Part shown: positions 3,172-52,100 of the stretch, in pieces | Numbering within the stretch: position 1 is the stretch's first letter | Layout: the number at the start of each line of letters is the position of its first letter | Assembly (NCBI GenBank): GCA_947084965.1 | Contig: CAMTUG010000001.1 | Span: 276,206 to 340,205, forward strand | Reading direction: 5' to 3' | From: an uncultured Parcubacteria group bacterium | GTDB taxonomy: Bacteria > Patescibacteriota > Patescibacteriia > UBA9934 > CAMTUG01 | Length of the DNA: 64,000 nucleotides | Notes under the pieces: model-generated | Told to the model about the DNA's origin: nothing | Databases searched by the model: none | The model's input: the letters and a program-made list of their open reading frames with translations, nothing else | Position numbers and translations under genes: made by a program

Positions 3172-3741
3172 ATGCCCCCTCGTTCTTCCGCCCCCGCCGG
3201 TCTCTCCTGCTCCTTCTGCACCAAGGCCGCCAACACCCCTGAGGTGAAGAAGGTCATCGCCGGCGTAAACGTCTACATCTGTGACGTCTGCGTCAAGGGG
3301 ATGGTCGCGCTCGTCGTTGTCCAACGTCCGGCTGACGCATCCTACCTCCTGCGTCGGCCCGAGCTCGATCTGCGCACCTTCACCATGACCGTCACGGGGT
3401 CGACGACGCTCGGTGACGTGCTCGGCTGGTACCTGCGTGTCTACCGTACGTTCCCTCACCTCCCCAAGGAGACCGGGACGGTCATCACGAGTGCTGCCTG
3501 CCGATTCTGCAGCCGGGTCGACCAGGTCGTGATCAGCCGCCTCGCGGCCAACATCTGCCTCGACTGCCTGCGGGACGTCGCCAAGATCCTGCTCAAGGAC
3601 GACCCTGCGCCGTCCTACCTGGTGCGTGATGCGGTGCTCGACTTGTGCCCGTTCGCCACCCTCCGCCTCGACGTGGATGAGCCGCACACCATCGGCGATG
3701 TTCTCAACGCCTACACGACCGCATCTCCGCCGCTGAACTGA
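3172..3741 (+). CDS. Small protein with two ClpX-type C4 zinc-finger motifs and no AAA+ domain. Extreme GC3 codon usage unlike the backbone
   Basis: AAGGAG SD 5 nt upstream. Motifs LSCSFCTKAANTPEVKKVIAGVNVYICDVCV and CRFCSRVDQVVISRLAANICLDCL resemble the ClpX N-terminal zinc finger. Third codon positions are almost all G/C, whereas the antisense ORF (3124-3756) lacks that signature. Confidence 0.7.
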   Translation: MPPRSSAPAGLSCSFCTKAANTPEVKKVIAGVNVYICDVCVKGMVALVVVQRPADASYLLRRPELDLRTFTMTVTGSTTLGDVLGWYLRVYRTFPHLPKETGTVITSAACRFCSRVDQVVISRLAANICLDCLRDVAKILLKDDPAPSYLVRDAVLDLCPFATLRLDVDEPHTIGDVLNAYTTASPPLN

Positions 3742-3863: not shown

Positions 3864-5048
3864 TTACGGTCGTTCCTTGGGGCGGAGGAAGTAGAGGACG
3901 ATCGCGAGAATGACGAGCAGTCCGCCGGAAGCGAGCCAGACGTCAGCGATGTTCGCCGGCGTGTCCTCGCGGCCGGACATGTAGAAGGCGAGTGAGAAGA
4001 GGACGATCGCGGCGCCGATCTCTTCCATCAGCGACTGCAACGATCCGAACGTCGAGCGGTATTCGCTCGTAACGTGGTGGTTGGTGTAGCTGTCGAGGAG
4101 CGGTCGGAACGCCCCGCGGCCGACTTCGTGCACCACGCCCATCACGAGGACCAGTCCAAGCCCAGGAACTTGCCCGATGAGCGCCAGGCCAACCCCAGCG
4201 ACGACGAGGGCGATCATCACGGCTTTGGCTTCGGCCCCTGAAGCGATCTTCGCTTTGCGAATGATCATCCCGGCGATGAAGAGCGCCAGATAGAGCGGGC
4301 TCCAGATCAGTCCGAGCTGGCTGGTGGCCACAAACTGCTCGAAGTACTTCGGCCAGTAGTGGTTGAACGCCACGACCAGACCGCTCACCATCCCTACCGC
4401 CACGGCCCAGCGCAGCGCCGAGCTGTTGCGCAGGGCATTGACGCTCCGCTTGAGCGCCTCTTTCTCGCTGACCTTTTCGTGGGCCAGTACTTCGCCGTCG
4501 CCGTTCATGTAGCGGGTGACGACAAAGAGTCCGACGAGAGCAAAGAACGCACTAGCGATCCACGGCCACCGAAGGCCGAAGGTCGATCCGATCCACGAGC
4601 CAAAGATCGCCGCCGGTGCGGCCAGCAATCCTTTGACGATCGCGGCGTTGGCGAACGTCTGCCCCTTTTCGTTTTCGCGATTGTGCAACTTCAAGGCGTC
4701 GACGATCCAGGCCTGCTGAATCCCCGAGAGGAAGGTGAAGGCCAAACCGTTGACCACTTCGGCCGCCAGCGCCCACCAGACGTTCTCTGCCAGGAAGTAG
4801 ATCGCGTTGCCCAGAGCGAAGATCAGGAAGCCGATGCGCAAGGACCAGGCGCGGGAGCGGGCGTCGGCCCACATCCCGGTCGGGACTTCGAAGAGGATGA
4901 TCGCCACCCAGAACCAACCGTTGACCATCGAAACCTGGCTCAAGGTGAGCCCGATCGAGGTGAGGAACGGAACGTAGGTCGCCGTGGTGACCATGAACAT
5001 CAGGCCCAGGGCGGCGGAGAAGAGGATGTAGGCGCGGGAAGGGGACAT
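3864..5048 (-). CDS. MFS-type transporter (12 predicted TM helices), GC-elevated
   Basis: Hydrophobic helices throughout, GGAGG SD upstream, ~60% GC with a high-GC3 5' half. Confidence 0.65.
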   Translation of the reverse strand: MSPSRAYILFSAALGLMFMVTTATYVPFLTSIGLTLSQVSMVNGWFWVAIILFEVPTGMWADARSRAWSLRIGFLIFALGNAIYFLAENVWWALAAEVVNGLAFTFLSGIQQAWIVDALKLHNRENEKGQTFANAAIVKGLLAAPAAIFGSWIGSTFGLRWPWIASAFFALVGLFVVTRYMNGDGEVLAHEKVSEKEALKRSVNALRNSSALRWAVAVGMVSGLVVAFNHYWPKYFEQFVATSQLGLIWSPLYLALFIAGMIIRKAKIASGAEAKAVMIALVVAGVGLALIGQVPGLGLVLVMGVVHEVGRGAFRPLLDSYTNHHVTSEYRSTFGSLQSLMEEIGAAIVLFSLAFYMSGREDTPANIADVWLASGGLLVILAIVLYFLRPKERP

Positions 5049-17593: not shown

Positions 17594-19048
17594 ATGACAG
17601 AGAACACGTTTTTCGGGTTAGGGATTGCGCCAAAGCTGCTCGACGTTTTGCAAGCCAATAAATACGTCACGCCAACGCCGATTCAGCAAAAGGCGATCCC
17701 GATCGCCATTGAAGGGAAGGATATCGTTGGAATCGCACAGACCGGAACGGGAAAGACGCTCGCTTTTTCCATCCCGATGCTTCAGCGACTGGCCGCCACC
17801 GGGGGAAAAGGGTTGGTGATTTTGCCAACCCGCGAATTAGCGTTGCAGGTCGAAGAAACGGTCATGAAGATCGGCCGCACGGCTGGGATTCGCACCGCTG
17901 TTTTAATTGGTGGTGCGTCGATGGGGTTACAGAAGAAGATGATCGAACGCAAGCCGCACGTGATCGTGGCCACCCCAGGTCGCTTGAATGATCATTTGCA
18001 GCAGGGGACGGTCAAGCTCGATGACGTCCGAGTTTTGGTGCTCGATGAAGCGGATCGCATGCTCGATATGGGCTTTGCTCCGCAGATCAACAAGATCATG
18101 GTCAAGTTGCCAAAGGATCGCCAGACGATGTTGTTTTCGGCAACGATGCCGCAGGAGATCGCCAAGATGGCCGCGGAATTTATGAAGCTCCCGTTGCGCG
18201 TCGAGATCGCCCGTCAAGGGACGACGGCTGAGCGGGTGGTGCAAGAAATGTTTGTGGTCAACAAAGAAGACAAGCAGCGTCTGCTCGAAAAATTACTCAC
18301 GGAATATAAAGGTACGGTTCTTGTCTTTTCACGCACCAAGCACGGGGCAAAAAAGATTTGCAAAGCGATCCAGACGATGGGGCACACCTCGGCCGAAATC
18401 CATTCCAATCGCTCACTTGCCCAGCGTAAAGAGGCGTTGAATGGATTTAAGAGCGGGAAGTATCGCGTCCTTGTAGCCACCGACATCGCTGCTCGCGGGA
18501 TCGACGTTACGGGGATTGAACTGGTCATCAACTTTGATCTTCCGGATGCTTCCGAAGACTACGTCCATCGCATCGGCCGCACCGGCCGCGCCGGCATGGC
18601 TGGTCGCGCTATTTCCTTTGCTACACCAGATCAACGCGGAGACATTCGCCAGATCGAGCGCTTAGTGCGTACCCAATTCAACTTGTTGAAACCAGAAGGG
18701 TTGCCAGAGCGCCGTGCTGCGCCGCCTGCTGATCCTAAGGATCAACGCACCCATGGCGGTCCTGCGCGTCATGGTGGAGGCCCATCACGCCACGGCCGTT
18801 CGCCACAAGGCGGCCGCCCGAATCGTGATGCTTCCCGTTTTGAACAAAAATCTCATCCAGCCCCACAGCATCACGCTTCGACCGGCGGATCGTCCGCTCC
18901 TCGTCGTGACGACGCTCGTCCACCGCGCCGAGACGATTCGCGTCCACCCCGCCGCGAAGGCGGTCACGGCCGCTCATCCGGCGCCGGCAATCCAAACCGC
19001 CCACCCAAGCGCGGCCCCAAGAAGTATTTTTACGGTTCAGCCTGGTAA
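17594..19048 (+). CDS. DEAD-box ATP-dependent RNA helicase with Arg/Gly/Pro-rich disordered C-terminal tail
   Basis: Q-motif, GTGKT, DEAD (VLDEADRML), SAT, HRIGRTGRAG; the tail carries RPPRRDD repeats. Confidence 0.85.
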   Translation: MTENTFFGLGIAPKLLDVLQANKYVTPTPIQQKAIPIAIEGKDIVGIAQTGTGKTLAFSIPMLQRLAATGGKGLVILPTRELALQVEETVMKIGRTAGIRTAVLIGGASMGLQKKMIERKPHVIVATPGRLNDHLQQGTVKLDDVRVLVLDEADRMLDMGFAPQINKIMVKLPKDRQTMLFSATMPQEIAKMAAEFMKLPLRVEIARQGTTAERVVQEMFVVNKEDKQRLLEKLLTEYKGTVLVFSRTKHGAKKICKAIQTMGHTSAEIHSNRSLAQRKEALNGFKSGKYRVLVATDIAARGIDVTGIELVINFDLPDASEDYVHRIGRTGRAGMAGRAISFATPDQRGDIRQIERLVRTQFNLLKPEGLPERRAAPPADPKDQRTHGGPARHGGGPSRHGRSPQGGRPNRDASRFEQKSHPAPQHHASTGGSSAPRRDDARPPRRDDSRPPRREGGHGRSSGAGNPNRPPKRGPKKYFYGSAW

Positions 19049-19384: not shown

Positions 19385-19529
19385 CCGATCTCTTGATCGA
19401 TTTAAGATTTTGTCGTACGATCCCCACGCATTCCGGGAGCCGACTGCATCGGCCCCGTCGTTCGCTCGGGAATGTCGAAGCGGTGAGTTTCTCCATTGCG
19501 CTCACTCACTCCGGGATCGTCTAATGGCA

Positions 19530-19603
19530 GGACAGCGGCCTTTGAAGCCGTGAATCGTGGTTCGAATCCACGTCCCGGAACCAAGAAAAATGACCAGCGC
19601 GTG
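19530..19603 (+). tRNA. tRNA-Gln (anticodon TTG)
   Basis: TCCGGGA acceptor, anticodon loop CTTTGAA, T-arm CGTGGTTCGAATCCACG, TCCCGGA-A-CCA. Confidence 0.8.
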
Positions 19604-21136: not shown

Positions 21137-21730
21137 TTAGTGCAGTTGTTTCTTTCTGCCGAGGAGGATCGCGGCTACGACGGCAAAGTTACAGATGAAA
21201 ATATAGAACGGGTAGGCGAGGAGGGGGAGGTCAATGACGCCGACAGCTAACAGGCCAAAGAATCCTCCGGTGCCAGAAAGGGCCCAAGTGATTAACGTTT
21301 CGCTCTCTGGATGTTCGTAGGATTTGATGACGGTCAGCCAGGCGCCCATGGCGTCAATCAATACGGTTAAGTAGACGGCGATGACCGCATTATCGGTAAA
21401 GTACCAGATGAGCAACGTTACCGCGGCCGCAAGAAGGGTGATTACATCGCGTTTGAGGAGTCCGCCGAATCCGTAGCGGATCGAGAGGAGAAGAACAATG
21501 ATCACGCCGATCCCTTGAATGCCTGGGAGCCAGAGGGAATGGGTAGCACCCACGGCGAGTTGGGTAAAGAACCCCATGGCAGTGAGCACGCTCCAAATTA
21601 GCCACGACGCACGTTCTGGCCTCACAGTCCCTTTCACGATGGCGATGATGTACGGCGGATAGGAGATCGCACTAAAAACTCCTGCCAGGATGCCGAAAAT
21701 AGCGAGAATGTTCATATAGTTACAACCCAC
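21137..21730 (-). CDS. Hypothetical polytopic membrane protein (~6 TM)
   Basis: Hydrophobic throughout; overlaps the FemAB gene by 11 nt, consistent with an operon. Confidence 0.5.
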   Translation of the reverse strand: MGCNYMNILAIFGILAGVFSAISYPPYIIAIVKGTVRPERASWLIWSVLTAMGFFTQLAVGATHSLWLPGIQGIGVIIVLLLSIRYGFGGLLKRDVITLLAAAVTLLIWYFTDNAVIAVYLTVLIDAMGAWLTVIKSYEHPESETLITWALSGTGGFFGLLAVGVIDLPLLAYPFYIFICNFAVVAAILLGRKKQLH

Positions 21731-22739
21731 GCTTTAAGCGGCGGAACGTTTCGATGGCGAAGTTGAGCCAGTACTTTTTGGTGAGCGGCAGGTCTTGGGC
21801 GTGAACGTACTCTTCGGGGAATCCACCGAATCCTTTTTTGAAAAGCGACAGTCCGGCCCAGGGGTGTTTGGGTTTGTTGTCCGGGGAGATTCCCCAGAAG
21901 TTATAGAGCGTACAGCCCCGGCGCTTGGCTTCTTGAATCGCTCGCCATTGCAAAAGCGATGAGGCGTTCAAGTGAGGGAAGATCTGAAGTGAACCGCTGT
22001 GGTGATAGTAGGCGGAACCGTTGTAGAAGATAATGATCGAGGCGGCGATGATCGTCCCTTGATAGGTGCCAAAGAAAAAGGCGGCCTGGTTGTCTTTAGC
22101 AAAAAGGTCAAACTCTTGTTTGAGGTAGGACTTGCTGAACGGCGTGTAGTGCTGACGATCCGCTGTCGCTTTGTACACTTTCCAAAAATCTTCCATCGCT
22201 TCCGGGTCGGTGCGCATGGTGATTTCGATCCTGTCCTTTTCTGACTTTTTGATCAGGTAGCGTGTTGTTTTGCGCATCTCTTTCAATAGCGTTTCCTCAT
22301 CTTTGGTGATGTCGAGGAGCCAGGAGAGTTCTGGATGCATGTGAATCGGTGCAGGGCGGAATCCTAGTGATGCGTAGAGACTTTTTTCCGTCACGGGTTG
22401 TAGTGGACAGATGCGAATGAAATCGCAGCGCTCGCGTTGTCCGATGTTAAGGAGTTCCTCGACGAGCACCTTGAGAATCCCAGCTGCGTCTGCATCTCTG
22501 GCGACCGTCGGACCGTGTGGACAGAGCAAAAAGGCTCCACGACGGGCGTTAATCTTAATGAGCAGAGCTACAGCCATCAATTGCTCCGCGCGATACACAC
22601 CCAGGCGGAAGATCTTTGATCCTGAGTGCTCGTACTGCAACCCCCATTTCCAGGAATGCAAAAACGTATGCGGACGCTGTTCTTGCATGAACGCTTCCCA
22701 ACGTTGTTCATCCTTTATTTCTGCAACGGAATAGTTCAT
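21720..22739 (-). CDS. FemAB-family aminoacyl-tRNA-dependent peptidyltransferase (FemX/MurM-like)
   Basis: 339 aa with FemAB-like motifs (HSWKWG, LLQWRAIQEAKRRG). Confidence 0.65.
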   Translation of the reverse strand: MNYSVAEIKDEQRWEAFMQEQRPHTFLHSWKWGLQYEHSGSKIFRLGVYRAEQLMAVALLIKINARRGAFLLCPHGPTVARDADAAGILKVLVEELLNIGQRERCDFIRICPLQPVTEKSLYASLGFRPAPIHMHPELSWLLDITKDEETLLKEMRKTTRYLIKKSEKDRIEITMRTDPEAMEDFWKVYKATADRQHYTPFSKSYLKQEFDLFAKDNQAAFFFGTYQGTIIAASIIIFYNGSAYYHHSGSLQIFPHLNASSLLQWRAIQEAKRRGCTLYNFWGISPDNKPKHPWAGLSLFKKGFGGFPEEYVHAQDLPLTKKYWLNFAIETFRRLKRGL

Positions 22740-23935
22740 ACCTCGTGTTGAGTGGCAAACCAGGCGTTCACTTCGCGTACAATGCGCTCGGCGTCGGCCT
22801 TGGAGATCGAACGGTGCGTCGGTAAGTTGAGAATCTGCTCAGAAACGAACTCCGACTGCGGGCACGTCCCGGTATAATCGGTCAGGTACATGTATTTTTT
22901 AGGTGCGATTGGAGCATCGTACCAAATGTCGCTGATGTAGATACGGCGCTTGCGCAGATAGGTGATCAGACCTTCTCGCTGTTTTACGAGAATCGGGAAG
23001 CGCAGATAGATCGCATCGTTATGATTCGCGGCTAACATTAAAAGATCTTTGCTAAGACCTGATTGATATATTTCGGTAATCATCTTGCGATGCGTAATCA
23101 TCTTCGGAAGAACGGTGTATTCATGCATCGCTTGCACGGTGTACCAACTCGGAAGTTCGTGCGCTTCGACCGTCATGCCAGGAGGAAGAGGTTTGGAAAG
23201 CAGATGCAAGGATCGGCAGACTTTGTGAAGTAGTTTCCCAATACCTAGCGCATGAGTGAGCCGAATTTTATAGGTGAGGGTCGGATAAAAACGATCGCGC
23301 AGTTGCTGTGAGCGAGAGATCTGTTTTGCTGGAGCGTGCGTTTTGTCGCTGTACTGCTTCGAACGGGTGATCAGCGCGCCGCCGGAAACGGCATCAATCA
23401 CTTTGTCTTGGCTAAACGAAAGGATCGTGAAGTCGCCGATCGTTCCGGCTTCTTCACCAGATGTGTATTGAACGCCGATCGAATGAGCCAAGTCCTCGAT
23501 CAACACCAACTGTTTTGATCGACAGAACTCGGCGATCTCTCGCGCTTCACACGGCTCGCCAAGCGTATTTTGAATGATGACAACGGTGATATCTGGGTTT
23601 GCTTCCACGGCGGTTTTCAACGCATCAAGGGAGAAGTTCAGCGAACCTGGTTCAATATCGAGGAGCTCGGCACGATATCCGCTGTTCACAATGGCCTGAT
23701 AGACGGCATAACAGGTGAAGCCGTTGATGATGACCGTACTTCCAGGCTTAGTGATTTTATTCAGAGCGAGGGCGATCGCTTCGCGGCCTTTGTAGGTGAG
23801 GGTCACTTCGCCGCCATAGCGTGACGATAAGAAATCAATAAAGCGCTGGCGTCTGGCCGGTGTGCCAACAGCCAGAAACGTTCGCCAAGCGTCGAAGAAT
23901 CCGTAGTTTGATCCGAGAGAGTTGAAGATGCTCAT
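22736..23935 (-). CDS. DegT/DnrJ/EryC1/StrS-family PLP-dependent aminotransferase (nucleotide-sugar aminotransferase-like)
   Basis: ILSFSQDKVIDAVSGGALITRS (PLP-lysine context), DLAHSIG, overall DegT-like. Confidence 0.7.
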   Translation of the reverse strand: MSIFNSLGSNYGFFDAWRTFLAVGTPARRQRFIDFLSSRYGGEVTLTYKGREAIALALNKITKPGSTVIINGFTCYAVYQAIVNSGYRAELLDIEPGSLNFSLDALKTAVEANPDITVVIIQNTLGEPCEAREIAEFCRSKQLVLIEDLAHSIGVQYTSGEEAGTIGDFTILSFSQDKVIDAVSGGALITRSKQYSDKTHAPAKQISRSQQLRDRFYPTLTYKIRLTHALGIGKLLHKVCRSLHLLSKPLPPGMTVEAHELPSWYTVQAMHEYTVLPKMITHRKMITEIYQSGLSKDLLMLAANHNDAIYLRFPILVKQREGLITYLRKRRIYISDIWYDAPIAPKKYMYLTDYTGTCPQSEFVSEQILNLPTHRSISKADAERIVREVNAWFATQHEV

Positions 23936-23936
23936 A

Positions 23937-24623
23937 CTAGGCGAGCTCCTGAATGATCTGTTCAGCGACAACTTCCGGATGCGTAACGTGTGGGGAGTGT
24001 CGCGCATTTGGAATCACAAAAAGCTTTGAATTCTCAATCGATCGGTGCATCAACTCACCGTCACTAAGCGGGGTGCTGCCGTCGTTCGCGCCCCAAATGA
24101 GGAGTGTTGGTGCTTTGATGCTTGATAAAACGGAACGCAGATCAACGCCGATCAGGTTAGCCATCGTTTTGCGCATGGCGGGACTTGCCTTCTCATAATC
24201 GCGTTCGCGGGCGGCACGATAGAGAAGTTTGCGTAGGCGATCGGATGAACTGAAGAGCTTTCCGACTTTGGCGAGGAGCCAAAAGACGCTGCGCTTGATG
24301 CGAATTTTTAAACCGTTCGGATAGATCCCGGCGCTGTCGATCAAAATCAATCGCTCAACTTTTTCTGGATATCGTGAAGCAAAAGCGATCGAGATGCGCC
24401 CGCCGTTTGAGTGGCCGACTAAGATGACCTTCTCTTCGTCTTTGAGTTCTGACTTCAACCAATCAACGTAATCATCGAGCGTCCAGGTGCGATCGGTGCC
24501 GTCGGTTAAGCCCGGAACGGGCAACAATTGCGAATCAATCCCGCTTTGCTTAAGCAGGGCGATGAGCGGATTCCAGGTGTCGGTGGTGTACGTCCAACCG
24601 TGGAGGATGTAAATCTTTTTCAT
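23937..24623 (-). CDS. Alpha/beta-fold hydrolase
   Basis: HGW...VGHSNGG nucleophile elbow, with Asp and His in the C-terminal part. Confidence 0.65.
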   Translation of the reverse strand: MKKIYILHGWTYTTDTWNPLIALLKQSGIDSQLLPVPGLTDGTDRTWTLDDYVDWLKSELKDEEKVILVGHSNGGRISIAFASRYPEKVERLILIDSAGIYPNGLKIRIKRSVFWLLAKVGKLFSSSDRLRKLLYRAARERDYEKASPAMRKTMANLIGVDLRSVLSSIKAPTLLIWGANDGSTPLSDGELMHRSIENSKLFVIPNARHSPHVTHPEVVAEQIIQELA

Positions 24624-25894
24624 AATGACCACTGCTTACGGCGAATCTGCCAGATCTGTTCGCGGCGGCAGAGCTTGTTTACATCGTCAGGGGAGGCAAG
24701 GAGATGTTCGATGACCCCTTCGAGGAATCGCGCGCCCTTAAATAGCAAAACCTCATCGCCTTTGATCGCAGACGAAAGATAATCAAGTGCGTCCTTCGGT
24801 TGGATGAATGATTCAATGTGCACTCCACGTTCTTCAAGTTCAGCTAACTTTGGCAGAGTGTACTTGGTGAGGCGTGGACCGACAAGAATGATCTGTTCGA
24901 AGTCGCTATCCACCAGGAGTTCAGCGAGGCCTTCGTGCTCGGTTTGCTCCTGTTCACCTTGCTCGATCAGATCACCAAGGATCGCCCACTTTTTTTCTGC
25001 TCGAAGTTGATTGACCATCGATACAATGACAGAGACAGAAGCGAGGTTGGCGTTATAGCTGCTGTCGATGATCGTTGTGTTTTTGATTCCAGCAAACAAC
25101 GAGCTCCGTCCTGGGGGCATGACAAGGCGTGAGAAGTGTTCGTCCGTTTGCTGTCCAAAGTATTCACAAATAACAGGCGTGGCAGCGATCGCATAGAACG
25201 TTTCTTTTGGAAGAAGATAGGGGAGATGATACGCGCGCCCACTGATCACAAATCCTGTCCCGGTCGTGGCAACGGAATATTCTTCGAGGTGGTCATCCTC
25301 GCGCACTTCGCGCCATTCGGCGGTCGTGCGTTTTTTCTGATCAACGATTAGTTTGTTGTCACCGTTCGTGATAACGAGTTTTGATGCCTGTTCGACGAAA
25401 TACCCAAACTCGTAGGCGATCGCCTCGTCTACGTTAGTAAACTTTCCTGTGCGCAGTAATTTTTCAAACTGCTGGCTGTGCGTTCGAGCACAGCTGAGCC
25501 AGATAACAATTTCTGGCTTGAGTAAAGCACTCAGGAAGCGACCTTCTCCTGGACGTTCCGCATCGGCTTCGACAACATAGATTTTCTCTGTCGGCGGTTT
25601 TTTCCAGGCCCGAATCGGAGCGAGAAGAAAAAGACCGATCCACTCAACGGGAGAAAACGTCGTACGTTTCAACCCGAGAATATCAAACGGAATTCCGTAA
25701 GTGCTGTTAGCGTGATGAGAATACTTGGCCGCTGTCTGCAGCTGCGATTCGAGCAGATGGAGGGCGGTCGTCTTTCCGTTTGATCCGGTAACAACAACAA
25801 TGCGCGGCTTCCAGAGGTGCAATTGAATCAACGCGCAATACTTAAAATAATGCGCGATAAAAAAATACAGTTTGTGCTTGATTTTCCTGAACAT
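24620..25894 (-). CDS. murF: Mur-ligase-family protein, MurF-like (lacks N-terminal domain; hydrophobic N-terminus)
   Basis: VVTGSNGKTT P-loop. C-terminal IIDSSYNANLASV...ILGDLIEQGEQE...LLFKGARF resembles MurF DDSYNAN...GDMAELG. Confidence 0.55.
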   Translation of the reverse strand: MFRKIKHKLYFFIAHYFKYCALIQLHLWKPRIVVVTGSNGKTTALHLLESQLQTAAKYSHHANSTYGIPFDILGLKRTTFSPVEWIGLFLLAPIRAWKKPPTEKIYVVEADAERPGEGRFLSALLKPEIVIWLSCARTHSQQFEKLLRTGKFTNVDEAIAYEFGYFVEQASKLVITNGDNKLIVDQKKRTTAEWREVREDDHLEEYSVATTGTGFVISGRAYHLPYLLPKETFYAIAATPVICEYFGQQTDEHFSRLVMPPGRSSLFAGIKNTTIIDSSYNANLASVSVIVSMVNQLRAEKKWAILGDLIEQGEQEQTEHEGLAELLVDSDFEQIILVGPRLTKYTLPKLAELEERGVHIESFIQPKDALDYLSSAIKGDEVLLFKGARFLEGVIEHLLASPDDVNKLCRREQIWQIRRKQWSL

Positions 25895-25967
25895 TTCGGC
25901 TGGTTATAGCCCCCCCGTGAACACCCTAAACCTTTCAGAGAATAACAGAATTCGAGCATTTTGACCA

Positions 25968-26025
25968 CAAAAATCAGAAGCCGCCCTCGGGAGAGTGTGT
26001 CGCGAAGGCGACTTCCGAGAGCGGC
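25968..26025 (-). terminator. Rho-independent terminator of the GC-rich Zn-ribbon cassette gene
   Basis: On the minus strand, gccgctctcgg...ccgagggcggc followed by ttctgatttttg. Confidence 0.55.
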
Positions 26026-26035
26026 GTGAGCCGGG

Positions 26036-26329
26036 TCAGTGGTAGAGGATGGTCGGATCGTCCGAACCGTCCGTGCCGGTGGTGGCGACCCTCCAGGCTC
26101 GGAGGATGCGTTGTAGTACCTCGTCTGGTTCGGCGGCCTTCGGCGTGACCGGAGGGTTCGAGGGCGTCATCGCGGCGTATCGATGACCGCAGTCCTCGCA
26201 GACGTACTCCGTCGTTGGGCGATCCGCCCCGAAGTTCACGATCTCCACGAGCTGGGTGTTCCGTCGCGGGCACCAGTCGCAGTCGCCGGTACACAGAGGG
26301 TTGCTCTGAAGCAGGCGGGTCTTAGACAT
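26036..26329 (-). CDS. Small Cys-rich zinc-ribbon protein, extreme GC3, inserted inside the operon
   Basis: GGAG SD 5 nt upstream. CTGDCDWC...CEDCGHRY forms two CxxC pairs. Almost all third positions are G/C. A putative TTGACG-17-TATTCC promoter lies in the 3' end of the RimK gene. Confidence 0.65.
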   Translation of the reverse strand: MSKTRLLQSNPLCTGDCDWCPRRNTQLVEIVNFGADRPTTEYVCEDCGHRYAAMTPSNPPVTPKAAEPDEVLQRILRAWRVATTGTDGSDDPTILYH

Positions 26330-26355
26330 GAGGTCTCCTGGTTGAACTAGGAATA

Positions 26356-27252
26356 TCAGTTTCGATTGAGGCCGTCAACTGTTTTGACAGCAAAGTCAAC
26401 GATCGCGCCAGCGACATCGACGCCCGATGCGCGTTCTAATTCTTCAAATCCTGGATTGGCGTTGACTTCGATCACCAGCGGTCCTCGTTTTGAGCGAAGG
26501 ATATCGACGCCGGCGATTTCAAGGCTGAACGCTTTTGCCGCCTCGATCGCCATGCGCATCTCTTCTTCTGTCAGTTCAACCGCTGTGCCAACTCCACCAA
26601 GCGACGCGTTGGCACGAACGTCACCGATGATTGCGGTGCGTTCCATCGCTGCAATCACTTGGTCACCAACAACAAAGGCGCGCAGATCTTTGCGACCCGC
26701 TTCGGCGATAAACTCCTCAACGATGATCGGGTTTTTGTCACGAATATGTAAATATTCAACGATCGGGGAGAGCGTTTCCACGTTCTCGGCGTAAAAAATC
26801 CCTTTGCCGTGGGTACCGAAGGCAACTTTTAAAATGATCGGATAGCCGATTTTGGCCGCCTCCGCTCGGGCATGATCCGAGGTGCGGCAGATCGCCCAGC
26901 GCGGCATGGCCACGCCAGCACGCGAGAGAATGAAATGTTGCGCCAGCTTATTTTTGGCGATCCCTCCGAGCGGGGAGTGGTTGATCACGCGAAAACCAAG
27001 AGCAACGAGCGCGTCCGTCGTAACGGCGTGCAAGCTCGGCTCTTCGACGAACCCTGGTCGGTTAATAATCACATCGAGCTTCGGTAACTCAGCTCCCATG
27101 TGCGTGACGATGCCTCCGGCGATGACGATCTCCGGCTCATGGAGCATCGTCACCTCGTGTCCCATCGCTCGTGCGGCCTGAATCAACCGCGGTGCGAGCG
27201 CTGGGTCGTCGATCTGTTTTGGGCGGCCGCTGGTTAAGATTCCAATGTGCAT
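26356..27252 (-). CDS. RimK-family ATP-grasp ligase (alpha-L-glutamate ligase-like)
   Basis: ATP-grasp motifs (GYPIILKVAFGTHGKGIFY, EEFI...GRKDLRAFVVGDQVIAAMER, GVDILRSKRGPLVIEVNANPGF). Confidence 0.75.
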   Translation of the reverse strand: MHIGILTSGRPKQIDDPALAPRLIQAARAMGHEVTMLHEPEIVIAGGIVTHMGAELPKLDVIINRPGFVEEPSLHAVTTDALVALGFRVINHSPLGGIAKNKLAQHFILSRAGVAMPRWAICRTSDHARAEAAKIGYPIILKVAFGTHGKGIFYAENVETLSPIVEYLHIRDKNPIIVEEFIAEAGRKDLRAFVVGDQVIAAMERTAIIGDVRANASLGGVGTAVELTEEEMRMAIEAAKAFSLEIAGVDILRSKRGPLVIEVNANPGFEELERASGVDVAGAIVDFAVKTVDGLNRN

Positions 27253-27257
27253 AATGT

Positions 27258-27379
27258 GGATCTTTAGAAAACTGCGTCTTTTCGTTTCACGGGTCCCGTC
27301 GACCCACTCAACGTAGAATCCCTACGTCTCGCGGGCTCGACACCCGTTCAACGAAAATACATCAGTTTTCTAAAGATCC
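27258..27379. repeat. 122-nt imperfect palindromic long-hairpin element, family copy E2
   Basis: Perfect 17-bp terminal inverted repeats ggatctttagaaaactg / cagttttctaaagatcc. Apical hairpin acgtag-aatcc-ctacgt. Inner motif ccgtcgacccactcaacgta is similar to E1 ccccgacgactcctcaacgta. Confidence 0.7.
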
Positions 27380-29456: not shown

Positions 29457-30290
29457 ATGAAAAATATTGGCTTGTGGATCGTGCTTGTCCTCGCTGTGGT
29501 TCTTGGTGCCTGGGTGTGGATGGAAACGTCGGACACCACGGAGGATCAGGAGGTCCAGGAAATGGTGTTGAATGAAACCGAGGACAGGGTCGAAGATGAG
29601 GAAGACGTGGCACCACAGGAGGCTGTCTGTACGCCATCGGATGCTAAGGTGGTCGTTGTGTCGAATGATGACATGACCTCACACACGGTGATGGTAAACG
29701 GAACGGCGGTTGGCACGCTTAGGGCGAGTGACAACGAATGGACAGAGTCCGCGGCCGAAGTTTGGCGCCAGACAGATTGCTACACGTTCATTGACTTCTC
29801 CCCAACCGGTCTCGGTGGCGCCATTTATTATGGCGGGCCATTCCGTCTGTACGTCGTAGATAAAGCCGAAGGAACGATGCGTTCTATTCCGACCGAAGGA
29901 TTCGTTGCCGACATTTCTCCAGACGGGCAGTGGGTGGCGGCGCGGGCGGAGTTCGACGGAAAGCAGTCTGTTGTTGGTGTGCAAATCGTCGGGACGGCTG
30001 CCGGGAGCGTCGCTCAACTGATCGCTCCGCCGGATGATTCCGGATTCGATGACGGGATCAGTGCGAAGTTTTCTCCGGACGGGACGAAACTTGCATATAC
30101 GGTAGCCGCACGCTGGAGTTGTGTTGAAGGAGATGGTGTTGATGTCTGTGATGTGGGTGCCTATATCATTGATTTAGACACCGGTTTGCAGACGGAATTA
30201 GAGATCAGTTCAACGATTCGAGATGGCTATCCTGTTTACGTCAGTGGTTGGAGTGATAACAACACCCCAATGATCACAGACGAGATGTAA
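29457..30290 (+). CDS. Secreted protein with TolB/PD40-like beta-propeller repeats
   Basis: Signal/TM, then ISPDGQWVA and FSPDGTKLAY repeats. Confidence 0.5.
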   Translation: MKNIGLWIVLVLAVVLGAWVWMETSDTTEDQEVQEMVLNETEDRVEDEEDVAPQEAVCTPSDAKVVVVSNDDMTSHTVMVNGTAVGTLRASDNEWTESAAEVWRQTDCYTFIDFSPTGLGGAIYYGGPFRLYVVDKAEGTMRSIPTEGFVADISPDGQWVAARAEFDGKQSVVGVQIVGTAAGSVAQLIAPPDDSGFDDGISAKFSPDGTKLAYTVAARWSCVEGDGVDVCDVGAYIIDLDTGLQTELEISSTIRDGYPVYVSGWSDNNTPMITDEM

Positions 30291-30307
30291 GATTTTGAAA
30301 TGCCGAA

Positions 30308-30333
30308 CCCCACCTGCGTTCCAGGTGGGGTTT
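30308..30333. terminator. Bidirectional terminator hairpin
   Basis: ccccacctg-cgttc-caggtgggg followed by ttt. Confidence 0.6.
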
Positions 30334-30348
30334 CGTGCGTCAGGTCGG

Positions 30349-30726
30349 CTAGCGTGCGACGACCACGTAGATGCCGTCGCGGTACTGACCGAGGAGGTAG
30401 AAGATCAGACCCTCGACCGTGATCCGCAGCGGGCGCAAGTGCGGCTCGAGCGGGACCGTGCCAAGGAGCATCCTTTCGACCGTGGCGGTGGTGCCGCCCA
30501 GCCGCAGGATGTGCACGGCGCTGATGGCGGGGTGGACCTGGGCCTGCAGCGTCCGGATGATCGCTGTGATGATCGGGTTGGGCGTGCCAGGCTTCGTGCC
30601 GGCCAGCTCGCCAGACGCGAGCTCCTCGCGCCGGATCGCGAGGGTGACCATGATCGGTCGGATGCGCAGCTCGGCCTCGGGCCCGAGCGTGGTACGAAGG
30701 TGGTTGCGCAGTCGGGCGGTGTCCAT
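30349..30726 (-). CDS. Hypothetical 125-aa protein, extreme GC3 (cassette gene)
   Basis: GGAG SD 9 nt upstream; putative promoter TTGACG-17-TATGAT. About 93% G/C at third positions but ~45% at second positions. Overlapping antisense ORFs were rejected. Confidence 0.6.
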   Translation of the reverse strand: MDTARLRNHLRTTLGPEAELRIRPIMVTLAIRREELASGELAGTKPGTPNPIITAIIRTLQAQVHPAISAVHILRLGGTTATVERMLLGTVPLEPHLRPLRITVEGLIFYLLGQYRDGIYVVVAR

Positions 30727-30791
30727 GGCAGATCTCCGTTGGGGACCCTGGATCATATGCGTTTTTGACGTTCGCGTCAAGGATTGCTAGG

Positions 30792-41343: not shown

Positions 41344-41688
41344 ATGTCCGAGTCCGTCACCGCCTTCCGTCCCGATCCGGCCAAGATCTACGAGATCACG
41401 CTCCTCGAGGGCGACGTGGATCAGATCTGGAACCTCGCCCACGAAGGGGGTCGTTCGATCCTGCTTCTCGTGCGAGACCAGGCCGATCCCGCCGCGCCCG
41501 AGCAGGGGCTCTCCCTCATCCTCTACTCCGTCGCCTGGGAGGGCGGCGACAAGGAAAACCACCCGAACGAGGTCGTCGTCCGCGGCCGCATCCACGGCCG
41601 TACCGCGGACGAGCCGAACCCGGTGATCGGGTTTTGCTGGGACGACAAGTCCCGGACCGGTCTCCTCAACGTGGTCCTCCCGGTCTAG
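41344..41688 (+). CDS. Hypothetical 114-aa protein, extreme GC3 (cassette gene)
   Basis: AAGGAG SD 5 nt upstream of ATG 41344. G/C-ending codons dominate. Followed by terminator 41744-41802. Confidence 0.6.
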   Translation: MSESVTAFRPDPAKIYEITLLEGDVDQIWNLAHEGGRSILLLVRDQADPAAPEQGLSLILYSVAWEGGDKENHPNEVVVRGRIHGRTADEPNPVIGFCWDDKSRTGLLNVVLPV

Positions 41689-51632: not shown

Positions 51633-52100
51633 TCAGCCGTAGAAGCCGAGGCGTTGGTAGAGGTGGGGTGGGAAGGAGACGCTGGGGGTCAGCGCCTGGT
51701 CCTCTGTGGTCGAGGTGGCGACGACCTGGTTGGTGCCGAGGTCCGTGTTCACGAAGAACTGGAACTCGACCGCTCCGGTCCCGAAGAAGGTGGAGATCAC
51801 GGCCACGCCCTGCTCGTTCGAGCGGACGTACCCGTAGTAGTCGAACCCGCTGTAGCCGATCAGCGGGATCTCGAGCTTGAACCCGACCAGCGCGCAGAAC
51901 GGTCGGTCGCCCCTGAGGACGATGTTCTGCATGCTGCGCTCGAGCCCTTCCGCCTTCGCACCGCGGTAGGTGTAGCGGACCATCTGGTTGGAGTACTTGA
52001 TGAAGTCGGCCATGAAGCCGAACTTCTTCAGGAATTCCTTGCTGAGGAAGACCGCCAGTGTGGTGGAGAGGACGAGGCAGGTGGTGAGGAGAACGGTCAT
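51633..52100 (-). CDS. Secreted/membrane-anchored hypothetical protein (155 aa), extreme GC3 (cassette gene)
   Basis: GGAAGG SD upstream. Near-consensus promoter TTGACT-17-TATATT, whose + strand reverse complement lies at 52146-52174. Terminator hairpin gaagcgcg...cgcgcttc plus T-run after the stop. The antisense ORFs 51621-52190(+) and 51502-52155(-) were rejected. Confidence 0.65.
   Translation of the reverse strand: MTVLLTTCLVLSTTLAVFLSKEFLKKFGFMADFIKYSNQMVRYTYRGAKAEGLERSMQNIVLRGDRPFCALVGFKLEIPLIGYSGFDYYGYVRSNEQGVAVISTFFGTGAVEFQFFVNTDLGTNQVVATSTTEDQALTPSVSFPPHLYQRLGFYG

What the first reader, a model, noticed from the sequence alone, without database searches (positions are those of the whole stretch)
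26036..26329. Foreign GC3-rich zinc-ribbon gene wedged between RimK and MurF-like genes with its promoter inside the RimK coding end
The 97-aa ORF has CxxC x2 pairs, its own GGAG SD and terminator, and a TTGACG-17-TATTCC promoter whose -35 lies within the last codons of the upstream RimK gene. It is an insertion into an operon that preserved both flanking ORFs. It could be a regulatory zinc ribbon co-opted by the pathway, or a selfish cassette.
Basis: partly seen in the sequence, partly recalled or inferred. Interest (0 to 1): 0.55.

Follow-up and report, generated by a model that had tools for sequence, protein, structure and literature searches.

The report
Imported orphan zinc-ribbon gene after rimK
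A 97-codon gene of clearly foreign composition, with no relative in billions of known proteins, has landed just after the rimK gene of an uncultured groundwater-type (Patescibacteria) bacterium; it is a real, recent import of a known kind, not part of the neighbouring pathways.

Summary
The ORF is real and lies on the minus strand (26036-26329). It has five Cys, including C17xxC20 and C44xxC47, an AGGAG 5 nt before the ATG, and a 16-bp hairpin plus U-run after the stop. GC3 is 0.80 against 0.58±0.06 in resident genes.

It is a strict orphan: it matched only itself in two protein collections (5.8 and 1.84 billion sequences). None of 35 related loci carries it.

"Insertion into a RimK-MurF operon" is wrong. 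Relatives have two separate units, dus-rimK and Mur-ligase/hydrolase/DegT/FemAB, which are never adjacent. The closest rimK relative has an empty site. The DNA just after the ORF's stop is homologous to DNA just after rimK's stop in one relative, so the gene sits between rimK and resident rimK 3' sequence. That resident sequence supplies the terminator's 3' arm and U-run.

The proposed promoter is no better than chance.

The gene is one of six GC3-rich, Shine-Dalgarno-led, hairpin-ended ORFs in this window, in a genome whose own genes lack Shine-Dalgarno sites.

Best reading: a recently acquired passenger gene for a small zinc-ribbon protein of unknown partner. If it is transcribed at all, this is by read-through from dus-rimK. 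This is a new member of a known kind; interest is low to moderate.

The parts
26036..26329 (-). 97-aa orphan ORF ('Z97'): a 4-Cys zinc-ribbon core at about residues 13-51, a Pro-rich linker, a helix at about 68-83 and an acidic tail. pI 5.2, 10.8 kDa.
   Evidence: ORF list. GC123 0.60/0.53/0.80. Periodicity p = 1.5e-4 and a codon-usage log-likelihood of +21 bits for the 'island' table over the core table. Only self-hits in two protein collections. AF2 single-sequence model has strands 27-32 and 39-44 and a helix 68-83, with pLDDT 59.
26335..26339 (-). Shine-Dalgarno-like AGGAG, 5 nt upstream of the ATG. This is a donor-type signal in a genome that does not use such sites.
   Evidence: Sequence. 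At the longest-ORF start, 3 of 47 resident genes have an SD-like 4-mer. With a liberal test the count is 6/6 island ORFs against 6/47 resident genes, Fisher p = 4e-5.
25969..26018 (-). Intrinsic-terminator-like hairpin (16-bp stem, 25974-26018) plus a U-run (25969-25973). It ends the rimK/Z97 transcript ahead of the Mur-ligase leader.
   Evidence: The 111-nt RNA fold is -39.9 kcal/mol, z = -4.3. No terminator-like site lies between rimK and Z97.
25970..26005 (-). 36-nt stretch (the terminator's loop, 3' arm and U-run) homologous to DNA that lies 50 nt after the rimK stop codon in relative L010. This is resident rimK 3' sequence and marks the 3' edge of the insert.
   Evidence: 31/36 identical, blastn E = 2.7e-5. 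Smith-Waterman score 47 against shuffles 13.8±2.2, max 27. Colinear over about 75 nt in alignment A4. Unique in the window.
26350..26378 (-). The -35 is at 26373-26378 inside rimK's non-conserved tail, and the -10 is at 26350-26355 just after the rimK stop.
   Evidence: The sequence is present, but 0.37 matches are expected by chance and 33/100 shuffles match. The promoter scan does not call it.
26356..27252 (-). Resident rimK (ATP-grasp ligase), the distal gene of the conserved dus-rimK pair. Its last 8 codons (26359-26382, ..TVDGLNRN) have no counterpart in six of the seven relatives aligned and are unrelated in the seventh. The stop codon is at 26356-26358.
   Evidence: Pfam RimK 1.4e-47. 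Alignment A1 shows the C-terminal extension. The dus-rimK pairing is seen in 4/4 plus about 20/26 related loci.
24620..25894 (-). Resident Mur-ligase-family gene. It is the first gene of the conserved Mur-ligase / alpha-beta-hydrolase / DegT / FemAB unit, which is separate from dus-rimK.
   Evidence: Pfam Mur_ligase_M and Mur_ligase_C. The four-gene order is seen complete in L004 and L007 and as far as the contig reaches in L003, L005 and L006, each with a different upstream neighbour.
25939..25944 (-). TATTCT within the roughly 75-nt Mur-ligase leader. It is conserved (GGTATTCT) in relatives L003 and L007, so it is probably part of the Mur unit's own promoter or leader, downstream of the terminator.
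   Evidence: Alignments A2 and A3.

Best explanation
Z97 is a real protein-coding gene recently acquired by horizontal transfer from a high-GC organism, or its phage or plasmid, that uses Shine-Dalgarno sites.

A segment of about 330 nt, consisting of a short leader with AGGAG plus the ORF, lies between the end of the resident rimK gene and rimK's own 3' region. This spot is a synteny breakpoint and is variable in all relatives.

Inferred mechanism:
- The gene has no convincing promoter of its own. It is 26 nt downstream of rimK with no terminator in between, so if it is transcribed it is as the last cistron of the dus-rimK message.
- That message stops at a hairpin whose 3' arm and U-run are resident DNA. 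The Mur-ligase unit then starts from its own conserved leader.
- The product would be a 10.8-kDa acidic protein. It has a three-stranded 4-Cys zinc ribbon (C17xxC20 ... C44xxC47), a proline-rich linker and one amphipathic helix. This is the build of small adaptor proteins that bind a nucleic acid or a partner protein.
- I consider it an accessory or near-neutral passenger, not a component of the RimK or Mur-ligase pathways.

Shown: the coding periodicity, the foreign composition and signals, orphan status, absence from relatives, and the insertion junction.
Inferred: the transcription route, zinc binding, and the binding role.
For: Coding and foreign:
- GC3 is 0.80 against 0.583±0.061 in resident genes.
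- Periodicity p = 1.5e-4. Synonymous-codon log-likelihood is +21 bits for the table built from the five other GC3-rich ORFs over the core table, while all 47 core genes score negative.
- A canonical AGGAG-5-ATG is present, in a genome where 3/47 genes have any SD-like 4-mer at the longest-ORF start.
- A Parcubacteria subgroup is reported to lack the anti-SD motif (PMC9297842).

Orphan:
- It matched only itself among 5.8 billion clustered proteins and 1.84 billion representatives scanned by phmmer.
- It has no viral, phage or plasmid relative.

Insertion:
- It is absent from 5 Mur-ligase loci, 4 rimK loci and 26 further rimK loci.
- In L013 (RimK 67% identical), rimK's stop is followed by a hairpin, about 160 nt and a convergent cold-shock gene, so the site is empty.
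- Sequence after the Z97 stop is homologous to sequence after the rimK stop in L010.
- rimK has a non-conserved 8-codon tail.

Context:
- Five other ORFs in the window share the same three traits.
- Similar ORFs lie downstream of rimK in L009 and L010.
- Genomic islands and transferred genes are documented in Patescibacteria (PMC12455944).

Fold:
- The best PDB sequence hits are all TFIIS/Rpb9/RPC10 zinc ribbons aligned across residues 16-51.
- AF2 gives a beta-hairpin plus a helix.
Against: - There is no homologue, so no evidence of purifying selection. The gene could be decaying.
- There are no expression data. If the host ribosome lacks an anti-SD, the AGGAG is only a relic and translation efficiency is unknown.
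- All family matches are below the curated cut-offs, and the structure model has low confidence (pLDDT 59).
- No donor was identified.
- No close strain (at least 90% identity) exists in the collections. The empty site is therefore inferred from relatives only 61-67% identical in RimK, and loss in those lineages cannot be strictly excluded.
Confidence: 0.7

Rival explanations
1. It is a dead fragment of a larger foreign element, for example the N-terminal zinc-ribbon and first-helix part of an IS1-type (InsA-like) transposase or another DNA-binding protein. It is no longer functional and remains an open frame only because GC-rich DNA has few stop codons.
For: The best plasmid tblastn hits are the N-termini of Deinococcus IS1-family transposases over residues 5-75. 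They show the same order of ribbon, linker and helix. The protein ends about 14 residues after its only predicted helix. Two more ORFs, of 55 and 106 aa, stay open in other frames of the same stretch.
Against: The IS1 hits have E = 0.7-10, which is not significant. No Pfam IS1 or IS1595 zinc-ribbon family appears even at E <= 0.1. There is no InsB remnant, no inverted repeats and no room for them, since the insert is about 330 nt. The ORF has an intact ATG with a correctly spaced AGGAG, and its stop lies directly against resident DNA.
Confidence: 0.13
2. It is a partner of RimK. It would be a small zinc-ribbon carrier or substrate protein for the ATP-grasp ligase, like LysW for LysX/ArgX, or a regulator recruited by the RimK or Mur-ligase pathway.
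For: It lies 26 nt downstream of a RimK-family ligase on the same strand. LysW is also a small zinc ribbon with a flexible acidic C-terminal part, and it shares a local 'VCEDCG' knuckle with Z97. The RimK here has a faint LysX pre-ATP-grasp hit, E = 0.029.
Against: None of 30 related rimK loci has such a neighbour. No LysW chain appears among the PDB hits at E <= 10, although LysW is in that library. The C-terminus is ...DDPTILYH, not the EDWGE-type tail ending in Glu that the ligase extends (established knowledge of LysW). There are no lysY/Z/J/K-type neighbours. The composition shows the gene arrived recently, next to an old and conserved dus-rimK pair.
Confidence: 0.05
3. It is not a gene but a spurious ORF in a GC-rich non-coding insert or structured RNA.
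For: It is an orphan. At 66% GC, an open frame of about 100 codons is expected by chance in at least one of six frames (my estimate is about 0.1 per frame). There is no promoter above chance.
Against: Strong codon-position periodicity appears in exactly this frame (p = 1.5e-4). The synonymous-codon pattern is shared with five other ORFs, two of which have solid Pfam domains, MFS_1 at 4.7e-25 and zf-C4_ClpX at 4.9e-9. The AGGAG is at the right distance. The two CxxC pairs are spaced as in zinc ribbons, with predicted beta-strands between them. There is no Rfam family here.
Confidence: 0.08
4. It is a self-mobile cassette (integron cassette, MITE-like element or other selfish unit) that targets the 3' ends of operons.
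For: It is a compact ORF followed by a hairpin, placed between a stop codon and a terminator. A short imperfect direct repeat lies at the two edges, CGGCCTCA at 26367-26374 and CGGC-TCA at 26027-26033. Five similar islets are in the window, and similar ones sit at the same spot in L009 and L010. A serine recombinase sits at the equivalent boundary upstream of the Mur ligase in L003.
Against: There are no attC core sites on the gene strand around the hairpin. The hairpin's 3' arm is resident DNA. There are no terminal inverted repeats, and no second copy of any part in the window. The island proteins are unrelated to each other. No integrase or transposase lies nearby. The 7-8 nt repeat is within chance.
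Confidence: 0.04

Closest known systems
Horizontally transferred genes and small genomic islands in Patescibacteria/CPR genomes (PMC12455944)
   Same: The composition is foreign, the gene is absent from relatives, and it sits in a variable inter-operon spot of a streamlined genome. That study reports hundreds of islands and transferred genes, covering up to 13% of genome length.
   Different: That survey detects transfers through donor-recipient pairs, mostly between Patescibacteria. It notes that it found no unique, recent imports. Here the import is a single 330-nt orphan gene with no identifiable donor. It is recognisable by higher GC3 and by a Shine-Dalgarno site in a genome that does not use them.
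TFIIS / Rpb9 / RPC10-type C-terminal zinc ribbon (Pfam PF01096)
   Same: It has a CxxC-x23-CxxC ribbon with a local motif 'GADRPTTEYVCEDCGHRY', compared with 'SADEPMTTF.VC.ECGNRW'. This family gives five of the top six, and eight of the twelve, PDB sequence hits, aligned over the whole ribbon.
   Different: E-values are only 0.008-0.4. The Pfam score is 13.9 bits against a cut-off of 21. The catalytic acidic pair DE reads DR. The other TFIIS/Rpb9 domains are absent. That family works on archaeal and eukaryotic RNA polymerases.
LysW amino-group carrier protein with LysX/ArgX (RimK-family ATP-grasp ligases)
   Same: It is a small zinc-ribbon protein encoded beside a RimK-family ligase, with a flexible C-terminal part carrying acidic residues.
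   Different: There is no detectable sequence relationship. The tail does not end in Glu/EDWGE. There are no downstream lys/arg genes, and the adjacency is unique to this genome.
FmdB-family / Zn_ribbon_8 small zinc-ribbon proteins (PF09723, TIGR02605) and DUF7685 (PF24734)
   Same: These are stand-alone small CxxC...CxxC proteins. The 'EYVCEDCGHRY' knuckle resembles the FmdB N-terminal knuckle, and DUF7685 aligns across residues 17-50.
   Different: All scores are below the curated cut-offs: 17.4 against 34.4, 15.4 against 31.3, and 18.9 against 27. The FmdB match covers one knuckle only.
Phage 'morons' and similar add-on genes placed between resident transcription units
   Same: It is a single foreign ORF with its own translation signal, set between a resident gene and a terminator, and deviant in composition.
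   Different: There is no prophage context, no promoter of its own above chance, and no phage relative.

Membership tests
Zinc ribbon (generic fold class) | Two Cys-x2-Cys knuckles separated by about 15-30 residues that form beta-hairpins | tested here: met
   C17xxC20 and C44xxC47 are 23 residues apart. AF2 places strands at 27-32 and 39-44, but at low confidence, with block pLDDT of 69-81.
Zinc ribbon (generic fold class) | Zinc is actually bound | not testable with these tools
   This needs purified protein and metal analysis.
Any curated zinc-ribbon family (Pfam DUF7685, Zn_ribbon_8, Zn_ribbon_TFIIS; NCBIfam FmdB) | Score at or above the family's curated cut-off | tested here: not met
   Scores against cut-offs are 18.9/27, 17.4/34.4 and 13.9/21, and 15.4/31.3.
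TFIIS/Rpb9-type C-terminal ribbon | Acidic hairpin (D-E) between strands 2 and 3, and accompanying TFIIS or Rpb9 domains | tested here: not met
   The aligned motif reads A-D-R-P instead of A-D-E-P. The rest of the protein is a linker plus one helix.
LysW amino-group carrier protein | Sequence relationship to LysW | tested here: not met
   No LysW chain is among the PDB hits at E <= 10, although the library holds LysW chains 3wwl, 5k2m and 3vpb. The pairwise match covers one knuckle only.
LysW amino-group carrier protein | C-terminal acidic tail ending in Glu (EDWGE-type), which the ligase extends | tested here: not met
   The C-terminus is ...GSDDPTILYH. The defining feature comes from established knowledge of LysW.
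LysW amino-group carrier protein | Conserved adjacency to the ATP-grasp ligase and to lysY/Z/J/K-type genes | tested here: not met
   The adjacency is seen only in this genome; 0 of 30 related rimK loci have it. The neighbours are dus and a Mur-ligase unit.
IS1-family InsA-like N-terminal domain | Significant similarity, an InsB or transposase remnant, and terminal inverted repeats | tested here: not met
   tblastn E = 0.7-10. There are no inverted repeats at the edges, and the insert is only about 330 nt.
Integron gene cassette | An attC site with R'' (RYYYAAC) and R' (GTTRRRY) core sites flanking the hairpin downstream of the ORF | tested here: not met
   There are no such sites on the gene strand near 25960-26035. 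The hairpin's 3' arm is resident DNA.
Horizontally acquired gene or islet | Composition and codon usage deviate from the resident genome | tested here: met
   GC3 is 0.80 against 0.583±0.061. Codon log-likelihood is +21 bits, while all core genes are negative.
Horizontally acquired gene or islet | Absent from the orthologous site in relatives | tested here: met
   It is in 0 of 35 related loci. L013 has an empty site. Junction homology with L010 is shown. Caveat: the nearest relatives are only 61-75% identical in the flanking proteins.
Horizontally acquired gene or islet | An identifiable donor or mobility genes | tested here: not met
   No homologue was found anywhere, and no recombinase is nearby in the window.
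   TATTCC lacks T6 and is not called by the scan. The pattern is expected 0.37 times by chance. Promoter rules in this lineage are unknown.
Intrinsic terminator | A GC-rich hairpin followed by a U-run | tested here: met
   A 16-bp stem is followed by UUUUU; z = -4.3.

The most novel reading that the evidence does not exclude
Z97 may be one visible member of a steady stream of very recent single-gene imports into this Parcubacteria-type lineage. The source would be one kind of donor that is high-GC and uses Shine-Dalgarno sites, possibly the unknown host cell or its phages.

The imports are recognisable by three joint traits: GC3 of 0.77-0.89, a canonical AGGAG or GGAGG site before the ATG, and a GC-rich hairpin after the stop. 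The resident genes of this genome lack Shine-Dalgarno sites.

The imports tend to land at the 3' ends of resident transcription units, where they can ride on resident transcription. If this is true, these islets could be used to infer the host or donor of an uncultured episymbiont. They would also allow a test of whether a ribosome that does not use Shine-Dalgarno sites can translate mRNAs led by them.
Probability: 0.2. Interest if true: 0.55.

Novelty: new member of a known kind. Interest (0 to 1): 0.3.

Why it matters
By itself the gene matters little. It is one more orphan small protein acquired by horizontal transfer, and nothing ties it to RimK or to the cell-wall-type Mur-ligase unit.

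Its value is as a clean example. The insert is about 330 nt, and its 3' edge can be placed within a few bases, between a resident stop codon and resident 3' sequence.

It also led to a wider pattern. In a genome whose own genes lack Shine-Dalgarno sites, six ORFs in 64 kb combine high GC3, a canonical Shine-Dalgarno site and a hairpin after the stop. This gives a simple, testable marker for recent imports in such lineages, and it may be a lead to their donors or hosts.

Tried and rejected
Homology searches that found nothing:
- A word-indexed search of 5.8 billion proteins and a full phmmer scan of 1.84 billion representatives returned the query only.
- PHROGs, PADLOC and NCBIfam gave nothing usable.
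- IMG/VR pattern scan: no relative.
- tblastn and blastn against phage and plasmid records: only chance-level hits or none.
- Rfam over the whole window: four tRNAs only.

Searches for relatives and context:
- An exact-pattern scan of metagenome contigs for the conserved 26-mer of the 3' element found nothing.
- 90%-identity clusters of Z97, RimK, Mur ligase and the MFS protein each have a single member. There is therefore no strain-level relative for a true presence/absence test.

Structure:
- The AF2 single-sequence model has pLDDT 59.
- Foldseek against PDB gave no hit with E <= 0.001. Rpb9 chains and the small Thermus zinc-finger protein ZifS appear only at E > 3.

Ideas considered and dropped:
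- A LysW-like carrier for RimK.
- An IS1 InsA remnant.
- An integron cassette.
- A leader peptide or attenuator for the Mur unit. Relatives keep the Mur leader without the ORF, and 97 codons is far too long.
- A shared origin of the six islets. Their proteins are unrelated.
- NUDIX genes as a link between the rimK and Mur neighbourhoods. They are not orthologous.

Other attempts:
- A donor guess from the MFS islet using plasmid tblastn was uninformative, with 24-31% identity to Firmicutes and archaeal transporters.
- A literature search for ZifS returned only materials-chemistry papers.
Full report
**What is in the sequence**

The ORF lies on the minus strand at 26036-26329 and encodes 97 aa. 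The protein is:

MSKTRLLQSNPLCTGDCDWCPRRNTQLVEIVNFGADRPTTEYVCEDCGHRYAAMTPSNPPVTPKAAEPDEVLQRILRAWRVATTGTDGSDDPTILYH

- Cys residues are at 13, 17, 20, 44 and 47; pI is 5.2.
- AGGAG sits at 26335-26339, 5 nt before the ATG.
- After the stop there is a small hairpin and then a 16-bp hairpin (25974-26018) followed by UUUUU. The 111-nt stretch folds at -39.9 kcal/mol, z = -4.3 against shuffles.
- Local GC reaches 0.66-0.67 in a genome of 0.53.

**Is it coding, and is it foreign?**

ORF length is no argument here. Two other ORFs, of 55 and 106 aa, stay open in other frames of this GC-rich stretch. The evidence is as follows.

- GC by codon position is 0.60/0.53/0.80. The permutation test for such periodicity gives p = 1.5e-4. 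No other open frame puts the GC-rich position third.
- Resident genes of at least 150 aa have GC3 0.583±0.061 (n=50), so this ORF is about 3.5 SD out.
- Its synonymous-codon choice fits a table built from five other GC3-rich ORFs of the window better than the resident table, by +21 bits. All 47 resident genes score negative.
- The host essentially does not use Shine-Dalgarno sites. Only 3 of 47 resident genes have any SD-like 4-mer at the longest-ORF start.
- With an equally liberal test, all 6 GC3-rich ORFs have a correctly spaced site, against 6 of 47 resident genes (Fisher p = 4e-5).
- A published survey reports that a Parcubacteria subgroup often lacks the anti-SD motif of 16S rRNA (PMC9297842). 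The AGGAG is therefore better read as a signature of the donor than as proof of expression in this host.
- An independent assembly of run ERR3478686 (locus L001) is 100% identical over 7.7 kb across the site. The junctions are therefore not a quirk of one assembler, although both assemblies may draw on the same reads.

**Orphan status**

- The protein matched only itself among 5.8 billion clustered proteins and 1.84 billion representatives read in full by phmmer.
- There were no hits in PHROGs or PADLOC, and only a sub-cut-off FmdB match in NCBIfam. IMG/VR had no relative.
- Phage and plasmid records gave nothing at the DNA level and only chance-level protein matches.
- Pfam gives only sub-threshold zinc-ribbon matches: DUF7685 at 18.9 bits (cut-off 27), Zn_ribbon_8 at 17.4 (cut-off 34.4) and TFIIS at 13.9 (cut-off 21).
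- Against PDB sequences, five of the top six hits, and eight of the twelve, are TFIIS/Rpb9/RPC10 C-terminal ribbons. The best, 1TFI, aligns over residues 16-51 at E = 0.008. The match includes '...ADRPTTEYVCEDCGHRY' against '...ADEPMTTFVVCNECGNRW'.
- I treat this as a lead on fold type only.
- A single-sequence AlphaFold model has low confidence (pLDDT 59). It places strands at 27-32 and 39-44 and a helix at 68-83.
- Foldseek against PDB finds nothing significant.

**Genomic context and the 'operon insertion' claim**

Names given to homologues of the flanking genes place the genome in Patescibacteria, in the Kaiserbacteria/Paceibacteria area.

Mur-ligase side:
- Relatives carrying the Mur-ligase gene (65-75% identical protein) show Mur-ligase / alpha-beta-hydrolase / DegT / FemAB in the same order. 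The order is complete in L004 and L007 and extends as far as the contig reaches in L003, L005 and L006.
- Each has something different upstream. L003 has a serine recombinase plus a large helicase. L004-L006 have small hypothetical genes and a NUDIX gene.
- The roughly 75-nt Mur leader, including GGTATTCT, is conserved in L003 and L007 and lies downstream of the Z97 terminator. The Mur unit therefore has its own start.

rimK side:
- Relatives carrying rimK (61-67% identical) show the block UvrA-UvrB-cytidylyltransferase-SIMPL, divergent from dus-rimK. What follows rimK is variable and mostly convergent.
- A further 26 rimK loci from metagenomes confirm the dus-rimK pair in about 20. None has a Mur ligase or Z97 within 3.5 kb.
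- In L013, with the most similar RimK (67% identity), rimK's stop is followed by a hairpin, about 160 nt, a convergent cold-shock gene and then tRNA-Gln. This is an empty site.
- The window has no cold-shock gene. Its tRNA-Gln(ttg) is 6.8 kb away, on the strand opposite to that expected from relatives.
- rimK and the Mur unit have therefore been brought together here by rearrangement, and Z97 sits exactly at that breakpoint.

**The junction**

- The 36 nt at 25970-26005 comprise the terminator's loop, 3' arm and U-run. They are 31/36 identical to L010 5936-5971, which lies 50 nt after L010's rimK stop. Blastn gives E = 2.7e-5, and the Smith-Waterman score is 47 against 13.8±2.2 for shuffles.
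- The two sequences are colinear over about 75 nt. The colinear stretch starts right after the Z97 stop in the window and about 21 nt after the rimK stop in L010.
- The ORF therefore lies between rimK and DNA that is rimK's own 3' region elsewhere. At least half of 'its' terminator is resident.
- On the other side, rimK carries an 8-codon tail (TVDGLNRN). Six of the seven relatives aligned have no counterpart, and the seventh has an unrelated tail.
- A short imperfect direct repeat lies at the two edges: CGGCCTCA at 26367-26374 and CGGC-TCA at 26027-26033. It is within chance, so I give it no weight.

**The promoter**

TTGACG-17-TATTCC is present, but the pattern occurs at chance frequency: 0.37 matches expected, and 33/100 shuffles match. 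The consensus scan does not call it. With 26 nt and no terminator between rimK and Z97, read-through from dus-rimK is the simplest route to a transcript. This is an inference.

**Function**

No homologue means no direct evidence of function. I tested the ideas the layout suggests, and each failed.

- *LysW.* This is the zinc-ribbon carrier used by RimK-family ligases. No LysW chain appears among the PDB hits at E <= 10, although the library contains LysW. The C-terminus is ...DDPTILYH rather than a tail ending in Glu. The adjacency is unique to this genome.
- *IS1 InsA-like fragment.* The hits have E of at least 0.7, and there are no inverted repeats and no InsB.
- *Integron cassette.* There are no attC core sites, and the hairpin is partly resident DNA.
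- *Attenuator for the Mur unit.* Relatives keep the Mur leader without the ORF.

My committed reading is a recently imported passenger gene for a small zinc-ribbon adaptor protein, not connected to its neighbours.

**Wider pattern (outside the finding)**

- Five more ORFs in the window share high GC3, a canonical Shine-Dalgarno site and a GC-rich hairpin after the stop:
  - 3172-3741(+), with a ClpX-type zinc finger and a second, similar Cys-rich segment;
  - 3864-5048(-), an MFS transporter;
  - 30349-30726(-);
  - 41344-41688(+);
  - 51633-52100(-).
- The 30349-30726 ORF lies between SIMPL and the cytidylyltransferase gene, which are adjacent in L009 and L011.
- Relatives L009 and L010 carry ORFs of the same style just downstream of rimK.
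- The proteins are unrelated to one another.
- Horizontal transfer and genomic islands are documented in Patescibacteria, at up to 13% of genome length (PMC12455944). The kind of event is therefore known. The Shine-Dalgarno contrast as a marker is the part I have not seen described. My literature check was limited to two relevant full-text searches.

**Verdict**

The gene is foreign and inserted. It was not inserted into an operon, and there is no sign of co-option or of selfish mobility.
- This is a new member of a known kind. Interest is 0.3.

Noticed in passing
window 3172-3741(+), 3864-5048(-), 30349-30726(-), 41344-41688(+), 51633-52100(-): Five further ORFs share three traits with Z97: GC3 of 0.77-0.89, a canonical AGGAG/GGAGG/GGAG site 4-8 nt before an ATG, and a GC-rich hairpin after the stop. 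Two have solid domains, MFS_1 at 4.7e-25 and zf-C4_ClpX at 4.9e-9. The other three have no family match. The proteins are unrelated to each other.
   Followed up: partly
whole window (47 resident genes): Resident genes essentially lack Shine-Dalgarno sites: 3/47 at the longest-ORF start, which is below the chance expectation. This fits the reported loss of the anti-SD motif in a Parcubacteria subgroup (PMC9297842). No 16S gene is in the window, so this could not be checked directly.
   Followed up: partly
window 29457-30780, compared with L009 2586-3942 and L011 2609-3946: SIMPL and the cytidylyltransferase gene are adjacent in relatives. In the window they are separated by a 277-aa gene of resident composition plus the GC3-rich ORF 30349-30726. 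This is a second insertion site with an empty-site comparison.
   Followed up: partly
L009 6609-6827(-), L010 6034-6486(-), L013 6859-7335(-): Relatives also carry GC3-rich ORFs (0.78-0.80) near rimK. L009 has a 72-aa orphan with AGGAG-5-ATG. L010 has a probable lipoprotein (lipobox LTIAGC) with GGAG-6-ATG. L013 has a P-loop kinase-like ORF. The rimK 3' region therefore looks like a recurrent landing spot in this lineage.
   Followed up: partly
window 19510-19583(+) compared with L010, L011 and L013: In relatives the order is rimK, then a convergent cold-shock gene, then tRNA-Gln(ttg) on rimK's strand. The window has no cold-shock gene, and its tRNA-Gln is 6.8 kb from rimK on the opposite relative strand. 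This suggests an inversion or rearrangement with one breakpoint at the Z97 site.
   Followed up: partly
L003 1-5892: In the closest Mur-ligase relative (75% identical), the gene directly upstream of the Mur unit is a large serine recombinase, next to a 1636-aa DUF4011/AAA_11/AAA_12 helicase. A mobile element sits at the same boundary where the window has Z97.
   Followed up: no
window 21720-25894(-): A conserved four-gene unit, Mur-ligase-family (no N-terminal domain hit) / alpha-beta hydrolase / DegT aminotransferase / FemAB-family transferase, is widespread in Patescibacteria. Some sources name the first gene 'cyanophycin synthetase'. Its product is unknown.
   Followed up: no
window 17594-19048(+), especially 18700-19048: One GC-rich stretch is not foreign. 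It encodes the Arg/Gly/Pro-rich low-complexity C-terminal tail of a DEAD-box helicase.
   Followed up: yes
window 27253-27361: dus and rimK are separated by 109 nt here, whereas they overlap by a few bases in relatives L008-L011. I did not examine what fills the gap.
   Followed up: no
L008 5115-5191(-) and 5237-5632(+): In L008 a tRNA-Thr lies 66 nt after rimK. The called 131-aa ORF downstream is the antisense of a cold-shock gene, so it is a mis-call in the source annotation.
   Followed up: yes
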